DNA of 64,000 nucleotides from contig JASJDM010000016.1 in assembly GCA_030065125.1 (NCBI GenBank), forward strand, positions 52,328 through 116,327, in the 5' to 3' direction. The translations under genes and the position numbers were made by a program. This document shows positions 47,242 through 53,476 of the stretch, one piece after another (position 1 is the stretch's first letter; each line of letters starts with the position of its first letter). The DNA is from Lysobacterales bacterium. Lineage in GTDB: Bacteria; Pseudomonadota; Gammaproteobacteria; Xanthomonadales; SZUA-38. Below the pieces are notes generated by a model. The model saw nothing but the letters and a program-made list of their open reading frames with translations. It was not told the origin of the DNA and ran no database searches.

Positions 47242-47562
47242 CTACTCGCCGTCGCCCCTGGCTTGCCGTTGTGCCTCAAACCGGGCGATCTTCTCGGGAT
47301 CGGCCGGTAGCTGGTACCTGGATTTCCACTCCGCGTACGGCATGCCGTAGATCCGCTGCTGCGCGTCCGCCAGGCTGACGTCCATCCCGGCCTCTAACGC
47401 CGCCTGGTGATACCACTTGCCGAGGCAGTTGCGGCAGAAGTCTGCCAGCAGCATCAGGTCGATGTTCTGTACGTCGGTTCGGTTCTGCAGATGTTTAACC
47501 AGCCGTCGGAACACGGCCGCTTCAATCTCGGTAGTTGATGGCGTTTCTGGCATGTTGTTCAC
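47242..47562 (-). CDS. DUF1244 family protein
   Basis: IEAAVFRRLVKHL..RTDVQNIDLM.LA.FCRNCL.KWY...YGMPYAEWK signature. Confidence 0.88.
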   Translation of the reverse strand: MNNMPETPSTTEIEAAVFRRLVKHLQNRTDVQNIDLMLLADFCRNCLGKWYHQAALEAGMDVSLADAQQRIYGMPYAEWKSRYQLPADPEKIARFEAQRQARGDGE

Positions 47563-47664
47563 TGTCCTTGATGACTGATACGCGGAACCCGGGCATGGCT
47601 GACCCCTGGAACCGTACGAGTGTTATATGGAAGACAATCGCATAAACATCAGAGCGTGTCATAT

Positions 47665-48141
47665 ATGCACCTATCGAGCTCTATTCAACGCCTTCCTGTG
47701 CACTGCGTGGTGGCGCTGGCGCTGATGACCACGTCCATGGCAAACGCGTCGGAGCCGGAAGACCCTCTGGGTGAACTGCGCTGGAAGGCACGCGTGCTGC
47801 TGGTATTTTCTCCCAGCGCCGGTGACACGCGTTCCACGGCGTTCCTGCAGGCTGCTGACGCTGCGGCCTGCGCTGTCGCTGAGCGTGACATGGTGATCGG
47901 TCGCATCAGTCCGGCTGGCACCAGCTTCCTGGGAGAAAACACCATCGCACCGTCCGATGCGGCGGCATTACGCCAGCGGTTCGGGATTGCGCCGGAGGCA
48001 TTCCGCATCCTGCTGGTGGGCAAGGACGGCGGCGTCAAGGGCGACTATCAACGGCCGCCCTCGTTGTCAGTAGTGTTTGACCTGGTGGACAGCATGCCCA
48101 TGCGGCGCCAGGAGATGCGGACGCGGTCAACATCCTGCTGA
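47665..48141 (+). CDS. DUF4174 family secreted protein
   Basis: Signal-like N-terminus; L.ELRWKARVLLVFSP, ERDM, LVGKDGGVK, FDLVDSMPMRRQEM. Confidence 0.82.
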   Translation: MHLSSSIQRLPVHCVVALALMTTSMANASEPEDPLGELRWKARVLLVFSPSAGDTRSTAFLQAADAAACAVAERDMVIGRISPAGTSFLGENTIAPSDAAALRQRFGIAPEAFRILLVGKDGGVKGDYQRPPSLSVVFDLVDSMPMRRQEMRTRSTSC

Positions 48142-48196: not shown

Positions 48197-50221
48197 CTAG
48201 AAGGCGGCCCGCAGACCCAGGATGAAGTTACGCCCGGGCAGTGGTGCCCGTTCGACCACAAACGACGTGTGGTTGCGCGCTTCCTCGTCATCCAGGTTGC
48301 GGCCACGCAGGTAGAACTGCCAGTCCAGGCCGCCAACGTCACCCATGTTGTACACCACGTCGGCGTTGATCATGGTATAGCTGTCGGTGGGTCGCTCAAA
48401 CGCCCCGATGTCGTCCTGGTCGTCGTAGCGGATCGCGTCGAGGCTGAACTGCCACTGGTTCCAATCCCAGTCCAGTCCGGCACCGAAGCGGTTCGGCGGC
48501 GTACGTGGCAGGTCACCTCCGTTATCCAGCTCCGCGGTCACGGAGTCGAAGAACATCGAGGCTCTCCAACCCTCACCAAAACTCAGTGCGAGTTCGCCCT
48601 CCCACCCGGAAATGTCAGCGTCGGCCTGCAGCCATTCAAACACCGGCAGTCCGTCTTCGACCAGCCCGGTGCCGTTCAGGTAGATGAAGTCGTCGTAGTT
48701 GTACTGGTAATAGGACAAGCTACCGGTGAGCGGGCTGGTGGTCGTCGCCAGGGTCAAATCGAAACTGGTGTTGCGCTCCTCCACCAGGTTGGGGTTGCCG
48801 ATTTCGAATGTACCGGTGGCCAGGTGTGGTCCGTCAGCGAACAGCTCCACTTCTGACGGTGCCCGCTCCGTTCGGGCCAGGTTCACCATCAGCTGAAAGT
48901 CTTCGTTGAAGCGCCAGACCGCGCCGCCGGAGATGCTGAACGGGTCATGGCTTGCGCTCAGGCCGCTGATGGCATCGGTATCCTGGCTTTCAATTCGCAG
49001 TCCTACCTCATAGCGGACGTCACCCACGGTTTTTTCTTCCACGATAAACAGCGCCTGCTGTTCGGTAGTGCTGGGGGGCACGAACGCTTCTTCCCCCAAG
49101 GCGCTGAAGTCCCGATCCCGGTAGTGGATGCCGACCGTGCCACGCCATCCACCGATGGGGTTGTGGGTCACTTCGAGCCGGGTTTCCAGGGTATCGGTAT
49201 CGAACTGGGTGCCGATTTCATCCCCTTCCAGTTCCACGTGCTCGTAGTCGTTATCAGAAATCAACAACTCGATCTGCTCAATCCCGTCAAACGGATTGGC
49301 GAAGGCCAGGCGTCCGTCAATCTTGGTTTGCTCCAGGTCGATGGAGACCTCTTCACCGCCGCCTTTCAGGCCAAGCTTGTCGTCCTCGTCTTCTTCCTCT
49401 TCCTCCTCACCGGCGGGAATTCCGTAGAGCGTATCGAAGGTACTGACGGTAATACTGGCGACAACGCTATCGCCGAGATAGCTCAGGCCCGCGGCAAAAC
49501 CCTCGGTTTCCACGCCACTGTTGGGCAGCGTGCCAAAGGCTTCTTCTTCATCGTCCTCGTCCTTCAGGTCATCCGCCCCTTCGCGCTCGGCAAAGCCGGG
49601 AATATCGTAGTCGTCCGCATCCCGGTAGAACGCGTCGAGATGGTAGGCAATCCGGCCGCTCTGACCGTTGATCTCAGCGCCACCGAACAGACCGTCAGCG
49701 ACACTATCGCCCTCCAGCACCAGAGAACCGCTGACGCCATCCCCGCCCATGTCCTCGGGCAGGCGATTGGTGCGTACGTTGACGACACCGCCGATGGTGT
49801 CGGAGCCGTACAGCAGCGTCGCGGGGCCATGCAGAACTTCCACCTGGCGCGCCAGGAAGGGCTCGATGGACACCGCGTGGTCAGCACTGACGGCGGACAC
49901 ATCATTACTGCTGATGTTGTTTTCGAGTACCGCGATGCGGAGGCCGTCCTGGCCGCGGATGATGGGGCGTCCCACGCCGGCGCCGAAAAAGGCACTGTGG
50001 ATGCCCGGCAGATTATTGACGGTCTCGCCAATGCTGGTGGTGAGTCTTTCCCGAAGCTCGCCGCCCGTCAGCACGGCGGTGATCACGGTACTGTCGTCAA
50101 CCGGGGTGTTCAACGGGGTGGCGGTTACAATAATTTGCTCGATTTCTTCCTCGGCGTCCTGGGCCCACGCTCCAGGCGCGACGGCACAGGCAATGGCCAG
50201 ACTCAAAAGGGTCCTGTTCAT
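48197..50221 (-). CDS. ZnuD-like TonB-dependent outer-membrane receptor
   Basis: GGAG RBS then ATG at 50221; plug RPIIRGQDG.R..VL.N...DVSAVSADHAV.IEP...GPATLLYGS..IGGVVN; C-terminal NL.DEEARNHTSF...APLPGRNF.LGLRAAF. Confidence 0.88.
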   Translation of the reverse strand: MNRTLLSLAIACAVAPGAWAQDAEEEIEQIIVTATPLNTPVDDSTVITAVLTGGELRERLTTSIGETVNNLPGIHSAFFGAGVGRPIIRGQDGLRIAVLENNISSNDVSAVSADHAVSIEPFLARQVEVLHGPATLLYGSDTIGGVVNVRTNRLPEDMGGDGVSGSLVLEGDSVADGLFGGAEINGQSGRIAYHLDAFYRDADDYDIPGFAEREGADDLKDEDDEEEAFGTLPNSGVETEGFAAGLSYLGDSVVASITVSTFDTLYGIPAGEEEEEEDEDDKLGLKGGGEEVSIDLEQTKIDGRLAFANPFDGIEQIELLISDNDYEHVELEGDEIGTQFDTDTLETRLEVTHNPIGGWRGTVGIHYRDRDFSALGEEAFVPPSTTEQQALFIVEEKTVGDVRYEVGLRIESQDTDAISGLSASHDPFSISGGAVWRFNEDFQLMVNLARTERAPSEVELFADGPHLATGTFEIGNPNLVEERNTSFDLTLATTTSPLTGSLSYYQYNYDDFIYLNGTGLVEDGLPVFEWLQADADISGWEGELALSFGEGWRASMFFDSVTAELDNGGDLPRTPPNRFGAGLDWDWNQWQFSLDAIRYDDQDDIGAFERPTDSYTMINADVVYNMGDVGGLDWQFYLRGRNLDDEEARNHTSFVVERAPLPGRNFILGLRAAF

Positions 50222-50334
50222 GTTCAACTCCAAAATTTATTTATCCCCAACAGGGGAGGTCAGCCGGGTTGCCCAGGGGCAACACGGAATCAACGTCAAT
50301 TCATAGACATTTCAAGGGGTAACGCGGGAATTGA

Positions 50335-50595
50335 TCAGTGCAGATTAGGGGGAGCGCGGCTGGGGTGACCGTTTCGGGAGGGAGCTGCAGGCGACTGTTG
50401 CGGATCAGACGACACAACTGCGTCGCCATTCTGGGGCAACGTGACTGCAGCCCGGATTTCCGGCAGCAGGGAATCAAGGCCAGGCAGCTGAATGCAGACT
50501 TCGCATTCGGCAACTGGATGCTGGTGCTCAACGTTGTGGTGGGCCGCGAGTGCCTGACCAAACAGCAGTAGCAGCGTGAGGCTGAAGACGCGCAC
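50335..50595 (-). CDS. DUF2946/CruR-like leader peptide with His cluster, CxxC and C-terminal RAPP (start uncertain)
   Basis: 3' part of the 50335-51171 frame: (M)RVFSLTLLLLFGQALAAHHNVEHQHPVAECEVCIQLP...HPSRAPPNLH*; GTG at 50595, alternative GTG at 50673; lies 113 bp upstream of the receptor on the same strand. Confidence 0.72.
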   Translation of the reverse strand: MRVFSLTLLLLFGQALAAHHNVEHQHPVAECEVCIQLPGLDSLLPEIRAAVTLPQNGDAVVSSDPQQSPAAPSRNGHPSRAPPNLH

Positions 50596-50705
50596 ACCAG
50601 TCGTGTGCCCTCGGGAGCGGATTGACCCAGGTTCGGGCAGCCGTTTCTGAATTTTCGAATGGATGCCTGTCACGGATTGTCGATGCCCGAATTCACGCCG
50701 GTCAC

Positions 50706-50771
50706 GAATCAAAAACGCCGAATCAAAAACGCCGAATCGAAAACGAACCCGCGATCCCACAACAGCGGGTT
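50706..50771 (-). repeat. Three 14-bp tandem repeats next to a hairpin (terminator-like region downstream of iorB)
   Basis: GAATCAAAAACGCC x2 plus GAATCGAAAACGAA (50706-50747); AACCCGC-N12-GCGGGTT hairpin (50746-50771). On the minus strand the hairpin is followed by T-rich tracts. Confidence 0.6.
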
Positions 50772-50825
50772 CAAAACGACGCAAACGTAACCTGTGAGAT
50801 GTCACGAAAAAGTGACGGCGGCGGC

Positions 50826-53021
50826 TCAGGCCAGAGCCTCTCGAACGCGGTCGGGCGTGAACGGCTGGTGCCGAATTCGGCGTCCGGTGAGCGCAAAAAA
50901 AGCATTGGCGATGGCCGGCGGTACCAGTGGATTGCCCGCCTCGCCGATCTGGGTCGGCTTTTCGTGATTTTCGGCAATGTGTACCTCGATCTTCGGCGAC
51001 ATGTTGTTTCTCAGGATTGCGTAGTCGTTGAAGTTGTTCTGGTCGACCTGACCGGCAGTGATGGTCACGCGTTCGTAGAGCGCGCTGCTCACGCCCCACA
51101 GCACGCCCCCTTCGATCTGACTGTGGGCATTGTCGGGCGAAACGATCTGGCCGGCGTCCACCGCAATCCACACCTGATGAACGCGGATGGTGCCGGATGA
51201 TTCATTGACCGAGATCTCAGCGATACCGGCGGACTGGGTATCCCCGTAGCCCGCAAACGCGAGACCGCGGGCGCGGCCTTCAGCCAGCGGAACTGCGGCC
51301 GCCATATTCTCGACGCGGTCGATCAGGGCTGTGCCGCGAGGATTGTCCCTCATGATCGCCCGCCGAAACTCGAAGGGGTTGATCCCGGCCTGGACCGCAA
51401 CCTCGTCAATAAACGCTTCTGCGGCAAAACTCGTGTACGCCGCCCCAATGCCGCGCCACGGCAGAATGCGCGCCTGCCGCTCTGTTTTTACGTGCTCCGC
51501 CAGGAAGTCGGGAATGCTGTAGAACTTGCTTTCGGCACCACGCATGGTGACGATGTCGTTTGGCGCTACCTGCTGCCAACGGATCGGATTGAAGTACTCG
51601 ATCACGGACGGTGTCGCCACCCGGTGATGCCAAGCCTTGAGAACGCCATTCTCGTCAACACCGGCCCTGAGGCGCTGGGCCGCGGCCGGGCGGAAGGCGC
51701 CGAACTTGATGTCGTCCGTCCGCGACCAGACCACTTTCACGGGCCGTTTCGCGGCCCGGGAGCACAGCAGCGCGTCGCGTACGTAGTTCTGCATCAGCTC
51801 GGTTCTTCGGCCAAAGCCGCCGCCCATGGTCATCATGTTCAGCCTGATGCGCTCGGGCGTGGTACCCAGCACCTCGGTGGCCGTGCGCGTCGTCCAGCTC
51901 TGGGTTTGTGTGCCGGCCCAGATTTCTGCGCCCTTGCCGTCCGTATCAACGCTGGCCACTGCCGCCATGGGTTCGATCTGAGCGTGGTAGGCGTAGTCCG
52001 AGGTGTACACCGCCTCGAAGGTTCTGGCGGCTCGAGACAAGGCTGCATCAGCGTCGCCCTCTGTGCGCCAGGCGGCGCCGGGGTCGTCACCTTCGGCCGC
52101 CTTTCGATAGGCGGCGATGGTGTCGTCGCTGCTGTACTTCCTGAACGGTGAGGACTCGGTCCAGGTCACGTTCAGCGCGGCCCGGCCGGCAAACGACGCA
52201 TGCATGGTCCTGGCAAGGACCGCCACACCATCCGGCAGCGGCACCACATCCATTACATCACGGGTCGCCCGGGTCGCCTTGTCGTCCATCGACGCGATGG
52301 ACTCGCCTTCCACCGGGGCGCGCAGCACCGTGGCGTAGACCATGTCGGGAACGCGCACGTCGATGGCGTACCGCGCCGTTCCAGTGGACTTTGCCGGAAC
52401 GTCACGACGGGGAACGCTTTTGCCAATCAGGGTGAACTGATCCTGGGATTTCAACGCTGCCGGCGCTGATAGCGTTGTCTCCGAGAATCGCGGCAAGGCG
52501 ACAATGTCGCCATAGGACAGGCTGCGGCCGGATGGCGCATGGATCACCCGGTTCTTTGCTGCTGTCAGCGCCTGCACATCGACCCCCCACTCGTCCGCCA
52601 CGCGCTGCCGCAGCATGTCCCGCAGGGTGGCTCCGGCCTGGCGCAATACCTGAAAGTAGCCGTAAATGGCCGAACTGCCCGCGGTGTAGAGCACATTGCC
52701 GAACGCGGGGTTGCCGAATCGTCGGTCATCCTGATTGAGCTGATGGATCGACACCTGGTCCCAGTCAGCTTCCAGCTCATCGGCCAGAATCTGCGGCAGA
52801 CCCGTCTCGCTGCCCTGCCCCATCTCTGTTGAGGGGAACAGGATATGAACCGAGTTGTCGGGCCTGATCTCCACCCAACCGGCAAATATCTCTCGGGTTT
52901 TGTCGCTGTCGCTGGGGCTGGCATACGCTTCCAGCCGGATACCGCCAGTGGCCAGCGCAACGGCTACGGCGGCGCCGGACTTGAGAAACAGCCGCCGTGA
53001 GGTGTGCACTGAGCCGCTCAT
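50826..53021 (-). CDS. Xanthine dehydrogenase family molybdopterin subunit (IorB-like) with Tat signal
   Basis: SRRLFLKSG twin-arginine signal; EMGQGSETGLPQILADEL, TAGSSAI, HAQIEP, MGGGFGRR, WRGIG, SQIEGGV.WG.S.AL, IGEAG.P.VPPAIANA. Confidence 0.88.
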   Translation of the reverse strand: MSGSVHTSRRLFLKSGAAVAVALATGGIRLEAYASPSDSDKTREIFAGWVEIRPDNSVHILFPSTEMGQGSETGLPQILADELEADWDQVSIHQLNQDDRRFGNPAFGNVLYTAGSSAIYGYFQVLRQAGATLRDMLRQRVADEWGVDVQALTAAKNRVIHAPSGRSLSYGDIVALPRFSETTLSAPAALKSQDQFTLIGKSVPRRDVPAKSTGTARYAIDVRVPDMVYATVLRAPVEGESIASMDDKATRATRDVMDVVPLPDGVAVLARTMHASFAGRAALNVTWTESSPFRKYSSDDTIAAYRKAAEGDDPGAAWRTEGDADAALSRAARTFEAVYTSDYAYHAQIEPMAAVASVDTDGKGAEIWAGTQTQSWTTRTATEVLGTTPERIRLNMMTMGGGFGRRTELMQNYVRDALLCSRAAKRPVKVVWSRTDDIKFGAFRPAAAQRLRAGVDENGVLKAWHHRVATPSVIEYFNPIRWQQVAPNDIVTMRGAESKFYSIPDFLAEHVKTERQARILPWRGIGAAYTSFAAEAFIDEVAVQAGINPFEFRRAIMRDNPRGTALIDRVENMAAAVPLAEGRARGLAFAGYGDTQSAGIAEISVNESSGTIRVHQVWIAVDAGQIVSPDNAHSQIEGGVLWGVSSALYERVTITAGQVDQNNFNDYAILRNNMSPKIEVHIAENHEKPTQIGEAGNPLVPPAIANAFFALTGRRIRHQPFTPDRVREALA

Positions 53022-53476
53022 TTTGGCATCTCGTCGGCAGCACGCTGAACCGCCTTGACGATGCGGTTGTAGGTACTGCATCGGCAGAGGTTGGTGCTCA
53101 TCCAGGACCGGATCTGATCTTCCGAGGGAGAAGGGTTCGTGTCCAGCAGCGCCGCCGCGCGCATGATCTGGCCGGACTGGCAATAACCGCACTGGGGAAC
53201 CTGTTCCTCGACCCAGGCCTTCTGCAGCGGGTGGTCACCGTTCTCGCTCAGCCCTTCGATAGTTTTGATGTTTCTTCCGGCGACACTGGCCAGCGTGATC
53301 TGGCAGGAAAACATCGACGAGCCTTCGAAATGCACCATGCAGGCCCCGCACTGGGCAGCACCACAGCCATACTTGGTGCCAGTCAGACCCAATTCCTCGC
53401 GCAGATACATCAGCAGCAGTGTGTTCGGATCCGCGTCCGTTTCCACGGGTTGGCCGTTGAGGGTGAAGCTGATCAT
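53018..53476 (-). CDS. (2Fe-2S)-binding subunit (IorA-like)
   Basis: LGLTGTKYGCGAAQCGAC, QCGYCQSGQIM, NLCRC; stop overlaps the iorB ATG. Confidence 0.92.
   Translation of the reverse strand: MISFTLNGQPVETDADPNTLLLMYLREELGLTGTKYGCGAAQCGACMVHFEGSSMFSCQITLASVAGRNIKTIEGLSENGDHPLQKAWVEEQVPQCGYCQSGQIMRAAALLDTNPSPSEDQIRSWMSTNLCRCSTYNRIVKAVQRAADEMPK

What the first reader, a model, noticed from the sequence alone, without database searches (positions are those of the whole stretch)
50222..50595. Unannotated metal-sensing RAPP arrest-peptide leader controlling the TonB receptor
Seen: a small ORF with a signal/TM segment, HHNVEHQH, CEVC and terminal RAPP (SRAPPNLH*), then a 113-bp spacer with two hairpins (GTTGCCC-CT-GGGCAAC, TCCCC-TGTT-GGGGA) before the receptor RBS. 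Known: RAPP motifs stall ribosomes, and Bordetella CruR (DUF2946; CxxC plus RAPP) is a uORF giving copper-dependent post-transcriptional control of a downstream TonB receptor. Inference: the same logic with an added His cluster, coupled to a receptor with non-canonical acidic loops, may form a sense-and-import circuit for a different metal. This is the other best candidate for an undescribed system.
Basis: partly seen in the sequence, partly recalled or inferred. Interest (0 to 1): 0.7.

Follow-up and report, generated by a model that had tools for sequence, protein, structure and literature searches.

The report
Zinc-linked RAPP ribosome-arrest leader peptide
A small 86-codon gene in front of a zinc-type outer-membrane receptor is a short relative of the copper-sensing, ribosome-stalling leader peptide CruR, and its whole subfamily sits at the head of zinc-import operons, so it probably ties receptor production to zinc rather than copper supply.

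Summary
Window 50595..50335 (-) is an 86-codon ORF with a signal or membrane segment, a His cluster, CEVC and a near-terminal RAPP. A 113-nt spacer with two hairpins follows, then a TonB-dependent receptor. The CxxC-to-RAPP spacing (45 residues) and the 3-residue tail match Bordetella CruR exactly. The leader does not hit Pfam DUF2946. A profile of its relatives matches canonical DUF2946 (hhalign 95.6%).

The same short architecture occurs in about 16% of 400 genomes of the class. In the loci I classified, it always precedes zinc-import genes: ZnuD-like receptors, an unknown outer-membrane barrel followed by ZnuA and ABC-3 genes, or ZrgABCD. It never preceded the OprC or PCuAC copper genes that follow canonical DUF2946. 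So the His cluster is a subfamily hallmark, not an addition.

Some members fall in Pfam DUF2607. That family includes the first gene of the Zur-regulated zrg operon of Vibrio parahaemolyticus.

Across the family, the codons after RAPP pair with the next gene's ribosome-binding site. At this locus that pairing is ambiguous. A CruR-like C>G (rut-like) stretch covers the stall site.

Verdict: a real CruR/CutF-type arrest leader and a zinc-linked variant of a known kind. No expression or stalling data exist.

The parts
50335..50595 (-). Leader ORF (86 codons plus stop, GTG start): CruR/CutF-like arrest-peptide gene
   Evidence: Homologues. dN/dS 0.39-0.47.
50542..50595 (-). N-terminal export signal or membrane anchor (MRVFSLTLLLLFGQALAA)
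   Evidence: Sequence inspection. The aligned hydrophobic segment with an A/G-Q motif is conserved across 28 relatives. No signal-peptide predictor was run.
50518..50541 (-). His cluster HHNVEHQH (residues 19-26). H20 is the family-invariant His
50494..50505 (-). CEVC (residues 31-34), the invariant CxxC
   Evidence: Spacing to RAPP is 45 residues, as in CruR.
50347..50358 (-). RAPP codons (residues 80-83): predicted ribosome-arrest site, with P82 in the P site and P83 in the A site by analogy
   Evidence: Invariant R-x-P-P. The CruR toeprint is reported in PMC12992588.
50296..50415 (-). C>G 'bubble' (C up to 48%, G 15-18%) over the last third of the leader and the early spacer: candidate Rho-utilisation site
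   Evidence: An analogous feature was mapped in cruR.
50222..50334 (-). 113-nt leader-receptor intergenic spacer
   Evidence: Aligned with two relatives.
50327..50333 (-). Candidate anti-Shine-Dalgarno (CAAUUCC), directly after the leader stop codon
   Evidence: MFE fold. RNAalifold outer helix with one compensatory pair. The pairing partner depends on sequence context.
50264..50287 (-). Hairpin 1 (10-bp stem around GTTGCCC-CT-GGGCAAC)
   Evidence: One pair is kept through changes on both sides.
50244..50257 (-). Hairpin 2 (TCCCC-TGTT-GGGGA), followed by an A/U-rich tract
   Evidence: C-G changes to U-A in L084.
50225..50231 (-). Receptor Shine-Dalgarno region (GGAGUUG)
48197..50221 (-). ZnuD-like TonB-dependent receptor (674 aa from ATG 50221): the regulated gene and last gene of the unit
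   Evidence: Pfam Plug plus barrel. NCBIfam ZnuD 1.1e-123, below cut-off. PDB ZnuD 4rdr 1.8e-63.

Best explanation
The 86-codon ORF is a translated, cis-acting leader of the CruR/CutF kind.

Proposed mechanism, all inferred:
1. As the peptide is made, its N-terminal signal or anchor engages export.
2. Its His2-3/Cys2 site (H20, H24, C31, C34) can bind a metal.
3. Its C-terminal RNGHPSRAPP module stalls the ribosome with the two Pro codons in the P and A sites.
4. The stalled ribosome sits on a C-rich, G-poor stretch and next to the spacer structure. This keeps the downstream ZnuD-like receptor expressed, either by blocking Rho loading (the CruR mode) or by opening the receptor's initiation region (the CutF/SecM mode).
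5. Metal binding to the nascent chain changes how long the stall lasts, and so sets receptor output.

The metal is most likely zinc, because every classified member of this short subfamily heads a zinc-import operon.

Shown here: the anatomy, its conservation, homology to DUF2946 at profile level, and the zinc-type gene contexts.

Not shown: translation, stalling, metal binding, the direction of the response, and which of the two read-out modes operates at this locus.
For: Geometry matches CruR.
- CxxC at 31-34 and RAPP at 80-83 give 45 intervening residues and a 3-residue tail. In CruR these are C90-C93 and RAPP 139-142 of 145.

Conservation.
- Invariant columns are H, C, C, R, P, P.
- The architecture was found in 65 of 400 class genomes and confirmed in 35 of 41 loci inspected.
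- dN/dS is 0.39-0.47.

Homology.
- hhalign of the short family against canonical DUF2946 gives probability 95.6%, E 1.1e-8.
- 15 of 28 relatives hit PF11162 at E<=1.

Zinc link.
- The receptor is ZnuD-like.
- Subfamily +1 genes are an outer-membrane barrel followed by ZnuA and ABC-3 (14 loci), a ZnuD-like receptor (11) or ZrgA followed by ZrgBCD (3).
- The second copy in this genome lies between zrgBC-like genes and another ZnuD-like receptor with His/Glu-rich loops.
- Canonical long DUF2946 genes in the same genome sample precede OprC-type receptors or PCuAC instead.
- DUF2607 overlaps the subfamily. It is the first gene of the Zur-regulated, zinc-starvation-induced zrg operon of V. parahaemolyticus.

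Read-out.
- A C>G bubble spans 50415..50296, like the rut region mapped in cruR.
- Family-wide, the Shine-Dalgarno partner lies within -21..+7 of the leader stop in 20 of 33 loci. Predicted SD accessibility rises from 0.24 to 0.41 with a ribosome at RAPP (Wilcoxon 1.5e-6; 3.4e-5 against a displaced footprint).
- At this locus, RNAalifold gives an outer helix between stop+2..+8 and the SD that encloses two hairpins. Four of the 26 predicted pairs in the consensus (including one beyond the start codon) are compensatory. Predicted accessibility of the receptor's AUG start codon rises from 0.40 to 0.78.
- RAPP arrest is demonstrated for CruR (PMC12992588).
Against: - The leader itself has no hit to PF11162 or PF10795, even at E<=10.
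- A single-sequence search of 1.84 billion proteins found only 3 real relatives.
- At this locus and its closest relatives, predicted SD accessibility does not change with a stalled ribosome (0.38 to 0.38). The SD partner switches with the length of sequence folded.
- The covariation rests on three sequences.
- The anti-SD candidate starts just beyond the expected leading edge of a RAPP-stalled ribosome.
- The C-richness partly follows from Pro, Ala and Ser codons.
- The receptor loops that are His-rich in ZnuD are purely acidic here, so the imported cation is not certain.
- CxxC is also a classic Cu(I) ligand.
- No Zur-like box was found upstream.
- No RNA or ribosome-profiling data exist. 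Only marine-sediment DNA runs hold the sequence.
Confidence: 0.6

Rival explanations
1. It is a copper sensor like CruR. The CxxC site binds Cu(I), and the receptor imports copper or a copper chelate.
For: - CxxC/RAPP geometry is identical to Cu-responsive CruR.
- The DUF2946 family is experimentally tied to copper.
- The receptor lacks the His-rich zinc loops of ZnuD.
Against: - The receptor is not OprC-type (TIGR01778 only 1.8e-7).
- It lacks the PepSY_TM partner typical of the CrtA/BfrG family.
- None of the 28 classified subfamily operons carries copper genes. All carry ZnuD-like, ZnuA/ABC-3 or Zrg genes.
- The copper contexts seen (OprC-type receptors, PCuAC) all followed the long canonical DUF2946 form; some long-form genes preceded other genes.
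Confidence: 0.15
2. It is a small exported metal-binding protein that works in trans, as a periplasmic zinc chaperone or accessory of the importer (as 'ZrgD'-type annotation implies). Its RAPP ending has no regulatory role.
For: - It has an export signal and a His/Cys site.
- The DUF2607 homologue is listed as a component of the zrg system and is co-induced with it.
- dN/dS below 1 shows protein-level constraint.
Against: - Only the anchor, the His/Cys site and the last ~10 residues are conserved. The 45-residue linker is free in sequence but fixed in length.
- R-x-P-P is invariant and always within 1-9 residues of the stop.
- The gene is the first in its operon in most loci inspected. One exception is the second copy in this genome, which follows zrgBC-like genes.
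- The tail codons pair with the next gene's SD across the family.
- CruR and CutF proteins are undetectable in vivo and act only in cis.
Confidence: 0.12
3. It is a chance or decaying ORF in a long 5' untranslated region. The receptor is controlled only at the promoter.
For: - No Pfam or NCBIfam hit.
- GTG start with a Shine-Dalgarno 12 nt away.
- No promoter-like site found by the simple scan.
Against: - The frame, length and all motifs are conserved in relatives down to 22-46% identity.
- dN/dS is 0.4 at saturating dS.
- There is a paralogous copy in the same genome.
Confidence: 0.03

Closest known systems
CruR (Bp2923) of Bordetella pertussis, prototype of Pfam DUF2946 (PMC9426467; arrest and toeprint in PMC12992588)
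   Same: - First gene of an operon, followed after a long spacer by a TonB-dependent transporter.
- Export signal, CxxC, and RAPP three residues from the end.
- 45 residues between the two motifs.
- A C>G stretch running from the 3' part of the leader into the spacer.
   Different: - 86 aa rather than 145 aa. The ~30-40 residues between anchor and CxxC are missing.
- An invariant His plus one or more further His precede CxxC.
- No hit to the PF11162 HMM.
- The receptor is ZnuD-like, not CrtA/BfrG, and there is no PepSY_TM gene.
- The context is zinc import, not copper.
- The spacer is 113 nt rather than 162 nt.
CutF of Rhodobacter capsulatus and the 'CutF-like' clusters (PMC9973294; bioRxiv 10.1101/2025.02.05.636593)
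   Same: - A Sec-exported nascent metal sensor with a C-terminal proline stall motif.
- A stem that hides the next gene's ribosome-binding site. In this subfamily the tail codons form that stem in most loci.
- The authors already note that not all clusters are copper-specific.
   Different: - CutF has CxxxC and PPP, and controls a multicopper oxidase that is switched ON by metal.
- Here the motifs are CxxC and RAPP in front of an importer.
- The word 'zinc' does not occur in that paper's main text.
- SD masking at this particular locus is not robustly predicted.
Pfam DUF2607 (PF10795), e.g. VP_RS01475, first gene of the Zur-regulated zrg operon of Vibrio parahaemolyticus (PMC9817125)
   Same: - A small gene at the head of a zinc-import operon.
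- The one DUF2607 hit over cut-off in my sample (G320) has the same H..CxxC-45-RAPP architecture and was also found by my leader profile.
   Different: - The window leader does not reach the DUF2607 HMM.
- In the literature the protein is treated as a transporter component of unknown function, not as an arrest peptide.
- I did not read the Vibrio sequence itself.
SecM / ApdA / ApdP RAPP-type arrest peptides
   Same: A C-terminal R-A-(G/P)-P arrest module close to the stop codon, an N-terminal export signal, and control of the next gene in cis.
   Different: Those peptides monitor the secretion machinery, where a pulling force releases the arrest. Here a His/Cys metal site lies at a fixed distance from the stall motif.

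Membership tests
DUF2946 / CruR (PF11162) | Match to the Pfam HMM at or above the gathering score (23.7 bits) | tested here: not met
   No hit even at E<=10 for the 86-aa ORF or the extended frame. The six-frame family search of the genome did not report the window locus. Among relatives, 15 of 28 hit at E<=1. One relative in the genome search is over cut-off, and it matches model positions 51-117 only.
DUF2946 / CruR (PF11162) | Conserved CxxC and C-terminal RAPP motifs | tested here: met
   CEVC at 31-34 and RAPP at 80-83 of 86. Both are invariant in alignments A1 and A2.
DUF2946 / CruR (PF11162) | CxxC-to-RAPP spacing conserved to within 1-2 residues (45 in CruR) | tested here: met
   45 residues here. 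The range is 42-46 (mode 44) in 30 relatives. The criterion comes from PMC9426467.
DUF2946 / CruR (PF11162) | N-terminal signal peptide or N-in/C-out membrane segment | tested here: met
   MRVFSLTLLLLFGQALAA by inspection. The hydrophobic block aligns across 28 relatives. No dedicated predictor was available.
DUF2946 / CruR (PF11162) | Homology to bona fide members | tested here: met
   Profile-profile hhalign of A2 (short family) against A4 (11 canonical members over cut-off): probability 95.6%, E 1.1e-8, aligned over anchor, CxxC and RAPP.
DUF2946 / CruR (PF11162) | First gene of an operon with a long spacer and a C>G (rut-like) region from the leader 3' part into the spacer | tested here: met
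   A terminator-like hairpin lies upstream (50771..50746). The spacer is 113 nt. C/G reaches 3.2 over 50415..50296. 28 of 36 relatives have C/G above 1.5 in the same zone.
DUF2946 / CruR (PF11162) | Ribosome arrest at RAPP and metal-dependent release, with Rho-dependent termination | not testable with these tools
   Needs toeprinting, PURE translation, reporter fusions and bicyclomycin. No RNA runs hold the locus.
DUF2946 / CruR (PF11162) | Copper-homeostasis gene context | tested here: not met
   The downstream receptor is ZnuD-like. Subfamily operons carry ZnuA/ABC-3, ZrgABCD or ZnuD-like genes, and none carries OprC, PCuAC or PepSY_TM.
CutF-type translational switch | An mRNA helix that hides the next gene's Shine-Dalgarno and is opened by the stalled ribosome | tested here: inconclusive
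   Family level: SD partner in the stall footprint in 20 of 33 loci. Accessibility rises from 0.24 to 0.41, p 1.5e-6. This locus: SD 0.38 to 0.38, AUG 0.40 to 0.78, partner context-dependent. RNAalifold supports a helix between stop+2..+8 and the SD, from only three sequences.
DUF2607 (PF10795; zrg-operon first gene) | Match to the Pfam HMM | tested here: not met
   No hit for the window leader or anywhere in its genome. Three relatives found by my profile are hit, one over cut-off.
ZnuD (zinc-piracy TonB receptor, NF038289), for the regulated gene | NCBIfam score at or above cut-off, and His-rich extracellular zinc-capture loops | tested here: not met
   414 bits against a cut-off of 950, full-length alignment. 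Best PDB relative is ZnuD 4rdr, 1.8e-63. The two insert loops are purely acidic here but His/Glu-rich in the paralogue and in L005. So it is ZnuD-like, not an equivalog.

The most novel reading that the evidence does not exclude
The short H-x3-H...CxxC-45-RAPP leaders are nascent-chain zinc sensors. A His2Cys2 site, the ligand set of a zinc finger, at a fixed distance from the arrest motif would read zinc availability during translation. It would set the duration of ribosome arrest, giving zinc importers (ZnuD-like receptors, ZnuA/ABC-3, ZrgABCD, including the 'unknown' first gene of Vibrio zrg operons) a post-transcriptional control layer beside Zur. This would be the first zinc-responsive arrest peptide. 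At this locus it may be the main control, since no Zur-like box was found.
Probability: 0.45. Interest if true: 0.8.

Novelty: new variant of a known kind. Interest (0 to 1): 0.55.

Why it matters
Metal-sensing arrest peptides are so far demonstrated only for copper (CruR, CutF). Zinc uptake is thought to be governed essentially by the repressor Zur.

A widespread leader family sits specifically at the head of three unrelated kinds of zinc importer. It appears in about one in six sampled genomes of the class. This would mean zinc import also has a translational or Rho-based check that acts on the nascent peptide.

It would also give a function to DUF2607 and to the 'unknown' first gene of zrg operons. 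It offers a natural comparison (Cys-rich long form against His2Cys2 short form) for asking how a nascent chain's metal site sets ribosome-arrest lifetime and metal selectivity.

For this particular window the value is as one clear, well-delimited example, with a paralogous second copy in the same genome.

Tried and rejected
- Pfam and NCBIfam scans of the leader gave only a noise hit (Mfa1, E 0.07).
- The word-indexed homologue search found nothing.
- The single-sequence HMMER search of 1.84 billion representatives gave 3 real relatives plus one low-complexity hit. Only a profile reached the family.
- The search for related loci with the receptor in genome contigs was wasted: the acidic low-complexity peptides chosen as patterns returned one unrelated Bacteroidaceae locus.
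- The simple promoter and terminator scan found nothing in 50100-50900.
- I looked for Zur boxes of the GTTAT-n3-ATAAC type. None lies within 300 nt upstream of either leader copy (best 5 of 12 mismatches). Four near-perfect ATGTTATAACAT sites exist elsewhere in the genome, but the flanking genes I inspected (a siderophore-type receptor, a small membrane protein, CoA-transferase/lyase genes) do not establish them as Zur sites. The genome's real Zur motif remains undetermined.
- NCBIfam has no ZrgB or ZrgC models. I tied the C50 genes to Zrg only by about 49-50% identity (49.8% and 48.9%) to genes next to a ZrgA.
- No RNA-seq runs hold the locus, so expression could not be examined.
- I considered and rejected intrinsic termination at hairpin 2. 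It has a 5-bp stem, and the U-tract is separated from it by 9 nt.
- I rejected the overlapping ORFs 50338..50571 (+) and 50301..50597 (-) as shadow frames.

Full report
**1. What is there**

On the minus strand, a GTG at 50595 opens an 86-codon frame that ends at TGA 50337..50335: MRVFSLTLLLLFGQALAAHHNVEHQHPVAECEVCIQLPGLDSLLPEIRAAVTLPQNGDAVVSSDPQQSPAAPSRNGHPSRAPPNLH.

- Residues 1-18 are a short positively charged start followed by a hydrophobic block.
- Residues 19-26 are HHNVEHQH.
- Residues 31-34 are CEVC.
- Residues 80-83 are RAPP.
- ATG 50221 starts a 674-aa TonB-dependent receptor that ends at 48197. It has Pfam Plug and barrel domains.
- The next gene downstream is on the other strand (DUF4174), so the unit is leader plus receptor.
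- Upstream, an IorAB-like molybdopterin oxidoreductase operon ends at 50826. It is followed by a terminator-like hairpin (50771..50746).

All parts of the observation are confirmed.

**2. It is a real, conserved gene**

- A six-frame search of related genomes found the same frame in two relatives (46% and 36% identity). Each directly precedes a receptor that is 79% or 59% identical to this one.
- An exhaustive HMMER search added a metagenomic 88-aa protein (58% identity). Its contig has the same leader, 111-nt spacer and receptor layout.
- The genome itself carries a second copy (contig C50, 57504-57797). It ends in RAPPAAIPSLP and precedes a 55%-identical receptor.
- Leader dN/dS against the two closest relatives is 0.39-0.47 at dS of about 1.
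- Conserved across these are the hydrophobic block, the His/Cys region and the last ten residues (RNGHP[SC]R[AG]PP). The linker between them varies in sequence but not in length.

**3. Relation to CruR/DUF2946**

The defining features of the family are CxxC, RAPP three residues from the end, 45 residues between them conserved to within 1-2, an export signal, first position in an operon, and a long spacer (PMC9426467). All are met here, and the spacing is exactly 45.

The proposed HMM test nevertheless fails. PF11162 gives no hit even at E<=10, and a family search of the genome does not report this locus.

A profile built from four leaders (A1) recovers the same architecture in 65 of 400 genomes sampled across the class.
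- 30 of the best loci show CxxC, 42-46 residues, then R[AGD]PP plus a 1-9-residue tail.
- 15 of 28 of those proteins touch PF11162 at E<=1.
- In the genome search, several relatives match only the C-terminal half of the model (positions ~51-117), and one is over the cut-off.
- Profile-profile comparison of the short family (A2) with 11 canonical members (A4) gives 95.6% probability, E 1.1e-8. The alignment runs over anchor, CxxC and RAPP, and shows a ~30-40-residue segment missing from the short form.

So this is a short, divergent branch of the CruR/CutF superfamily that lies outside the current Pfam boundary. Part of the branch is captured by another Pfam family, DUF2607. Three of my profile's hits are also DUF2607 hits, one over cut-off.

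**4. The His cluster is the subfamily's signature**

In 35 leaders, every one has at least two His in the 22 residues before CxxC (mean 3.0).
- One His sits at -13 in 26 of 35.
- A second sits at -9 (H-x3-H, 23 of 35) or at -6/-5.
- The His aligned with H20 of the window is invariant in A2.

Canonical long DUF2946 proteins lack this pattern and often have a further Cys instead. His2-3/Cys2 is the ligand set of structural zinc sites. That comparison is my inference.

**5. Which metal?**

The receptor is ZnuD-like.
- NCBIfam ZnuD scores 1.1e-123 over its full length, but 414 bits against a cut-off of 950.
- The copper receptor model TIGR01778 scores only 1.8e-7.
- The best solved relative is Neisseria ZnuD (1.8e-63).
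- It is not the CrtA/BfrG type controlled by CruR. That type forms its own cluster and is followed by a PepSY_TM gene in more than 75% of loci (PMC12914433). No such gene is here.

I fetched 8-kb contexts for 40 further loci; with the window that made 41, of which 35 kept a detectable leader.
- The first downstream gene is an unassigned outer-membrane barrel ending in SLGAHGAH[KR][YF] in 14. In at least 10 of these it is followed by a ZnuA-family binding protein (PF01297) and an ABC-3 permease (PF00950).
- It is a ZnuD-like receptor in 11.
- It is ZrgA (PF10986, NF047873) in 3, followed in two of those by ZrgB/C/D-type genes.
- The remaining 7 were lost to my ORF filter. Five of these had been seen, on the shorter loci, to start with a ZnuD-like receptor or a barrel-like protein. 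One precedes an unassigned 157-aa protein, and one was not examined.

In the same genome sample, long canonical DUF2946 genes precede OprC-type receptors and PCuAC chaperones, among other genes.

The second copy in this genome follows genes that are about 49-50% identical (49.8% and 48.9%) to ZrgB and ZrgC. The permease carries a long His/Asp-rich insert.

In V. parahaemolyticus, the first gene of the Zur-repressed zrg operon is a DUF2607 protein induced 147-fold by zinc limitation (PMC9817125).

Guilt by association therefore points to zinc. The caveat for this locus is that the two receptor loops that are His/Glu-rich in its paralogue and in L005 are purely acidic here. The transported cation is therefore not certain.

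**6. How the signal may be read out**

Two published modes exist.

*(a) CruR mode.* The ribosome stalled at RAPP blocks Rho from a C>G rut region that runs from the 3' part of the leader into the spacer. Copper relieves the stall, and transcription then terminates.
- Here a C>G stretch (C up to 48%, G 15-18%, C/G up to 3.2) spans 50415..50296 and is centred on the RAPP codons.
- 28 of 36 relatives have C/G above 1.5 in the same zone.

*(b) CutF/SecM mode.* The stalled ribosome melts a helix that hides the next Shine-Dalgarno.
- Across the subfamily this design is clear. In 20 of 33 loci the SD pairs with the codons between RAPP and the stop, or with nucleotides just after the stop.
- Forcing a ribosome footprint at RAPP raises the mean SD accessibility from 0.24 to 0.41. 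The Wilcoxon p is 1.5e-6 against free mRNA and 3.4e-5 against a footprint displaced by 45 nt.
- The paralogous copy on C50 shows the design robustly.

At the window locus the prediction is unstable.
- The SD pairs either with CAAUUCC directly after the stop (50333..50327) or with GCAGCUCC 25 nt upstream of RAPP, depending on how much sequence is folded.
- Predicted SD accessibility does not change with the footprint. Only the start codon opens, from 0.40 to 0.78.
- RNAalifold on the window and its two closest relatives gives a helix between stop+2..+8 and the SD that encloses both hairpins. Four pairs are kept through double changes, but this rests on three sequences, one of them shifted.

I conclude that both read-outs are plausible here. 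The CruR-like one fits the long structured spacer slightly better, and neither is shown. For an importer, the expected logic is 'stall and express when metal is scarce'. That is inference.

**7. What is missing**

- No sigma-70-like promoter was found by the simple scan.
- No GTTAT-n3-ATAAC type Zur box lies within 300 nt upstream. The lineage's Zur motif is unknown, so this is inconclusive.
- The sequence comes from marine-sediment metagenomes, and no RNA runs hold it. Translation and stalling are untested.

**8. Novelty**

- RAPP/RGPP uORFs upstream of TonB receptors and metal genes are catalogued (PMC12992588).
- CutF-like clusters are known not to be all copper-specific. Nickel and cobalt are suggested for His-only clusters (PMC9973294).
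- Neither paper mentions zinc in its main text.
- Searches combining CruR, RAPP or arrest with zinc, Zur, ZnuA or ZrgA found no paper that links them.
- Earlier notes of this scan report the same zinc-linked leader in many other genomes. They agree with my reading, which I reached independently. They are not independent evidence.

The locus is thus a new variant, zinc-linked with a short His2Cys2 form, of a known kind. As an individual instance it is one more member of a recurrent family.

Noticed in passing
window 50706-50747 (read on the minus strand), just upstream of the leader: A 14-nt unit GATTCGGCGTTTTT is repeated about 2.6 times in tandem. It sits between a terminator-like hairpin (AACCCGC...GCGGGTT, 50771..50746) and the leader start. 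It could be a promoter or operator element, or a slippage product.
   Followed up: no
G000 contig C50:55341-59973 (locus L085): A second leader copy (MISGRHKRAL...CTVC...RAPPAAIPSLP) lies between zrgB/zrgC-like ABC genes and another ZnuD-like receptor with His/Glu-rich loops. The permease carries a roughly 60-residue His/Asp-rich insert. Here the receptor SD pairs robustly with the leader tail.
   Followed up: partly
loci L088, L090, L094, L096, L100, L107, L109, L111, L112 (first gene after the leader): A 390-470-aa predicted outer-membrane protein has no Pfam or NCBIfam match. It often has an N-terminal coiled coil and an FNPxISLILxG motif, and it ends in SLGAHGAH[KR][YF]. It sits between the leader and ZnuA/ABC-3 genes, so it is a candidate zinc-specific outer-membrane channel family.
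   Followed up: partly
window 49345-49580 (receptor residues ~215-290): The two insert loops of the receptor are purely acidic (DDLKDEDDEEE and EEEEEEDEDDK). The paralogue and one relative have His/Glu-rich loops at the same positions, and more distant relatives lack the inserts altogether.
   Followed up: partly
window 47242-47562 (-) and 47620-48141 (+): DUF1244 and DUF4174 genes flank the receptor's 3' end. The DUF4174 gene on the opposite strand closes the leader-receptor unit.
   Followed up: no
window 50826-53476 (-): An IorA/IorB-like two-gene aldehyde or isoquinoline oxidoreductase lies immediately upstream on the same strand. It comprises a 2Fe-2S subunit and a molybdopterin subunit with a TAT signal.
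   Followed up: no
G000: C45:2681, C50:71068, C53:62587, C133:36671: Four near-perfect ATGTTATAACAT palindromes occur in a 62% G+C genome. One precedes a siderophore-type TonB receptor. They may be operators of a Fur-family regulator, but I did not establish which one.
   Followed up: partly
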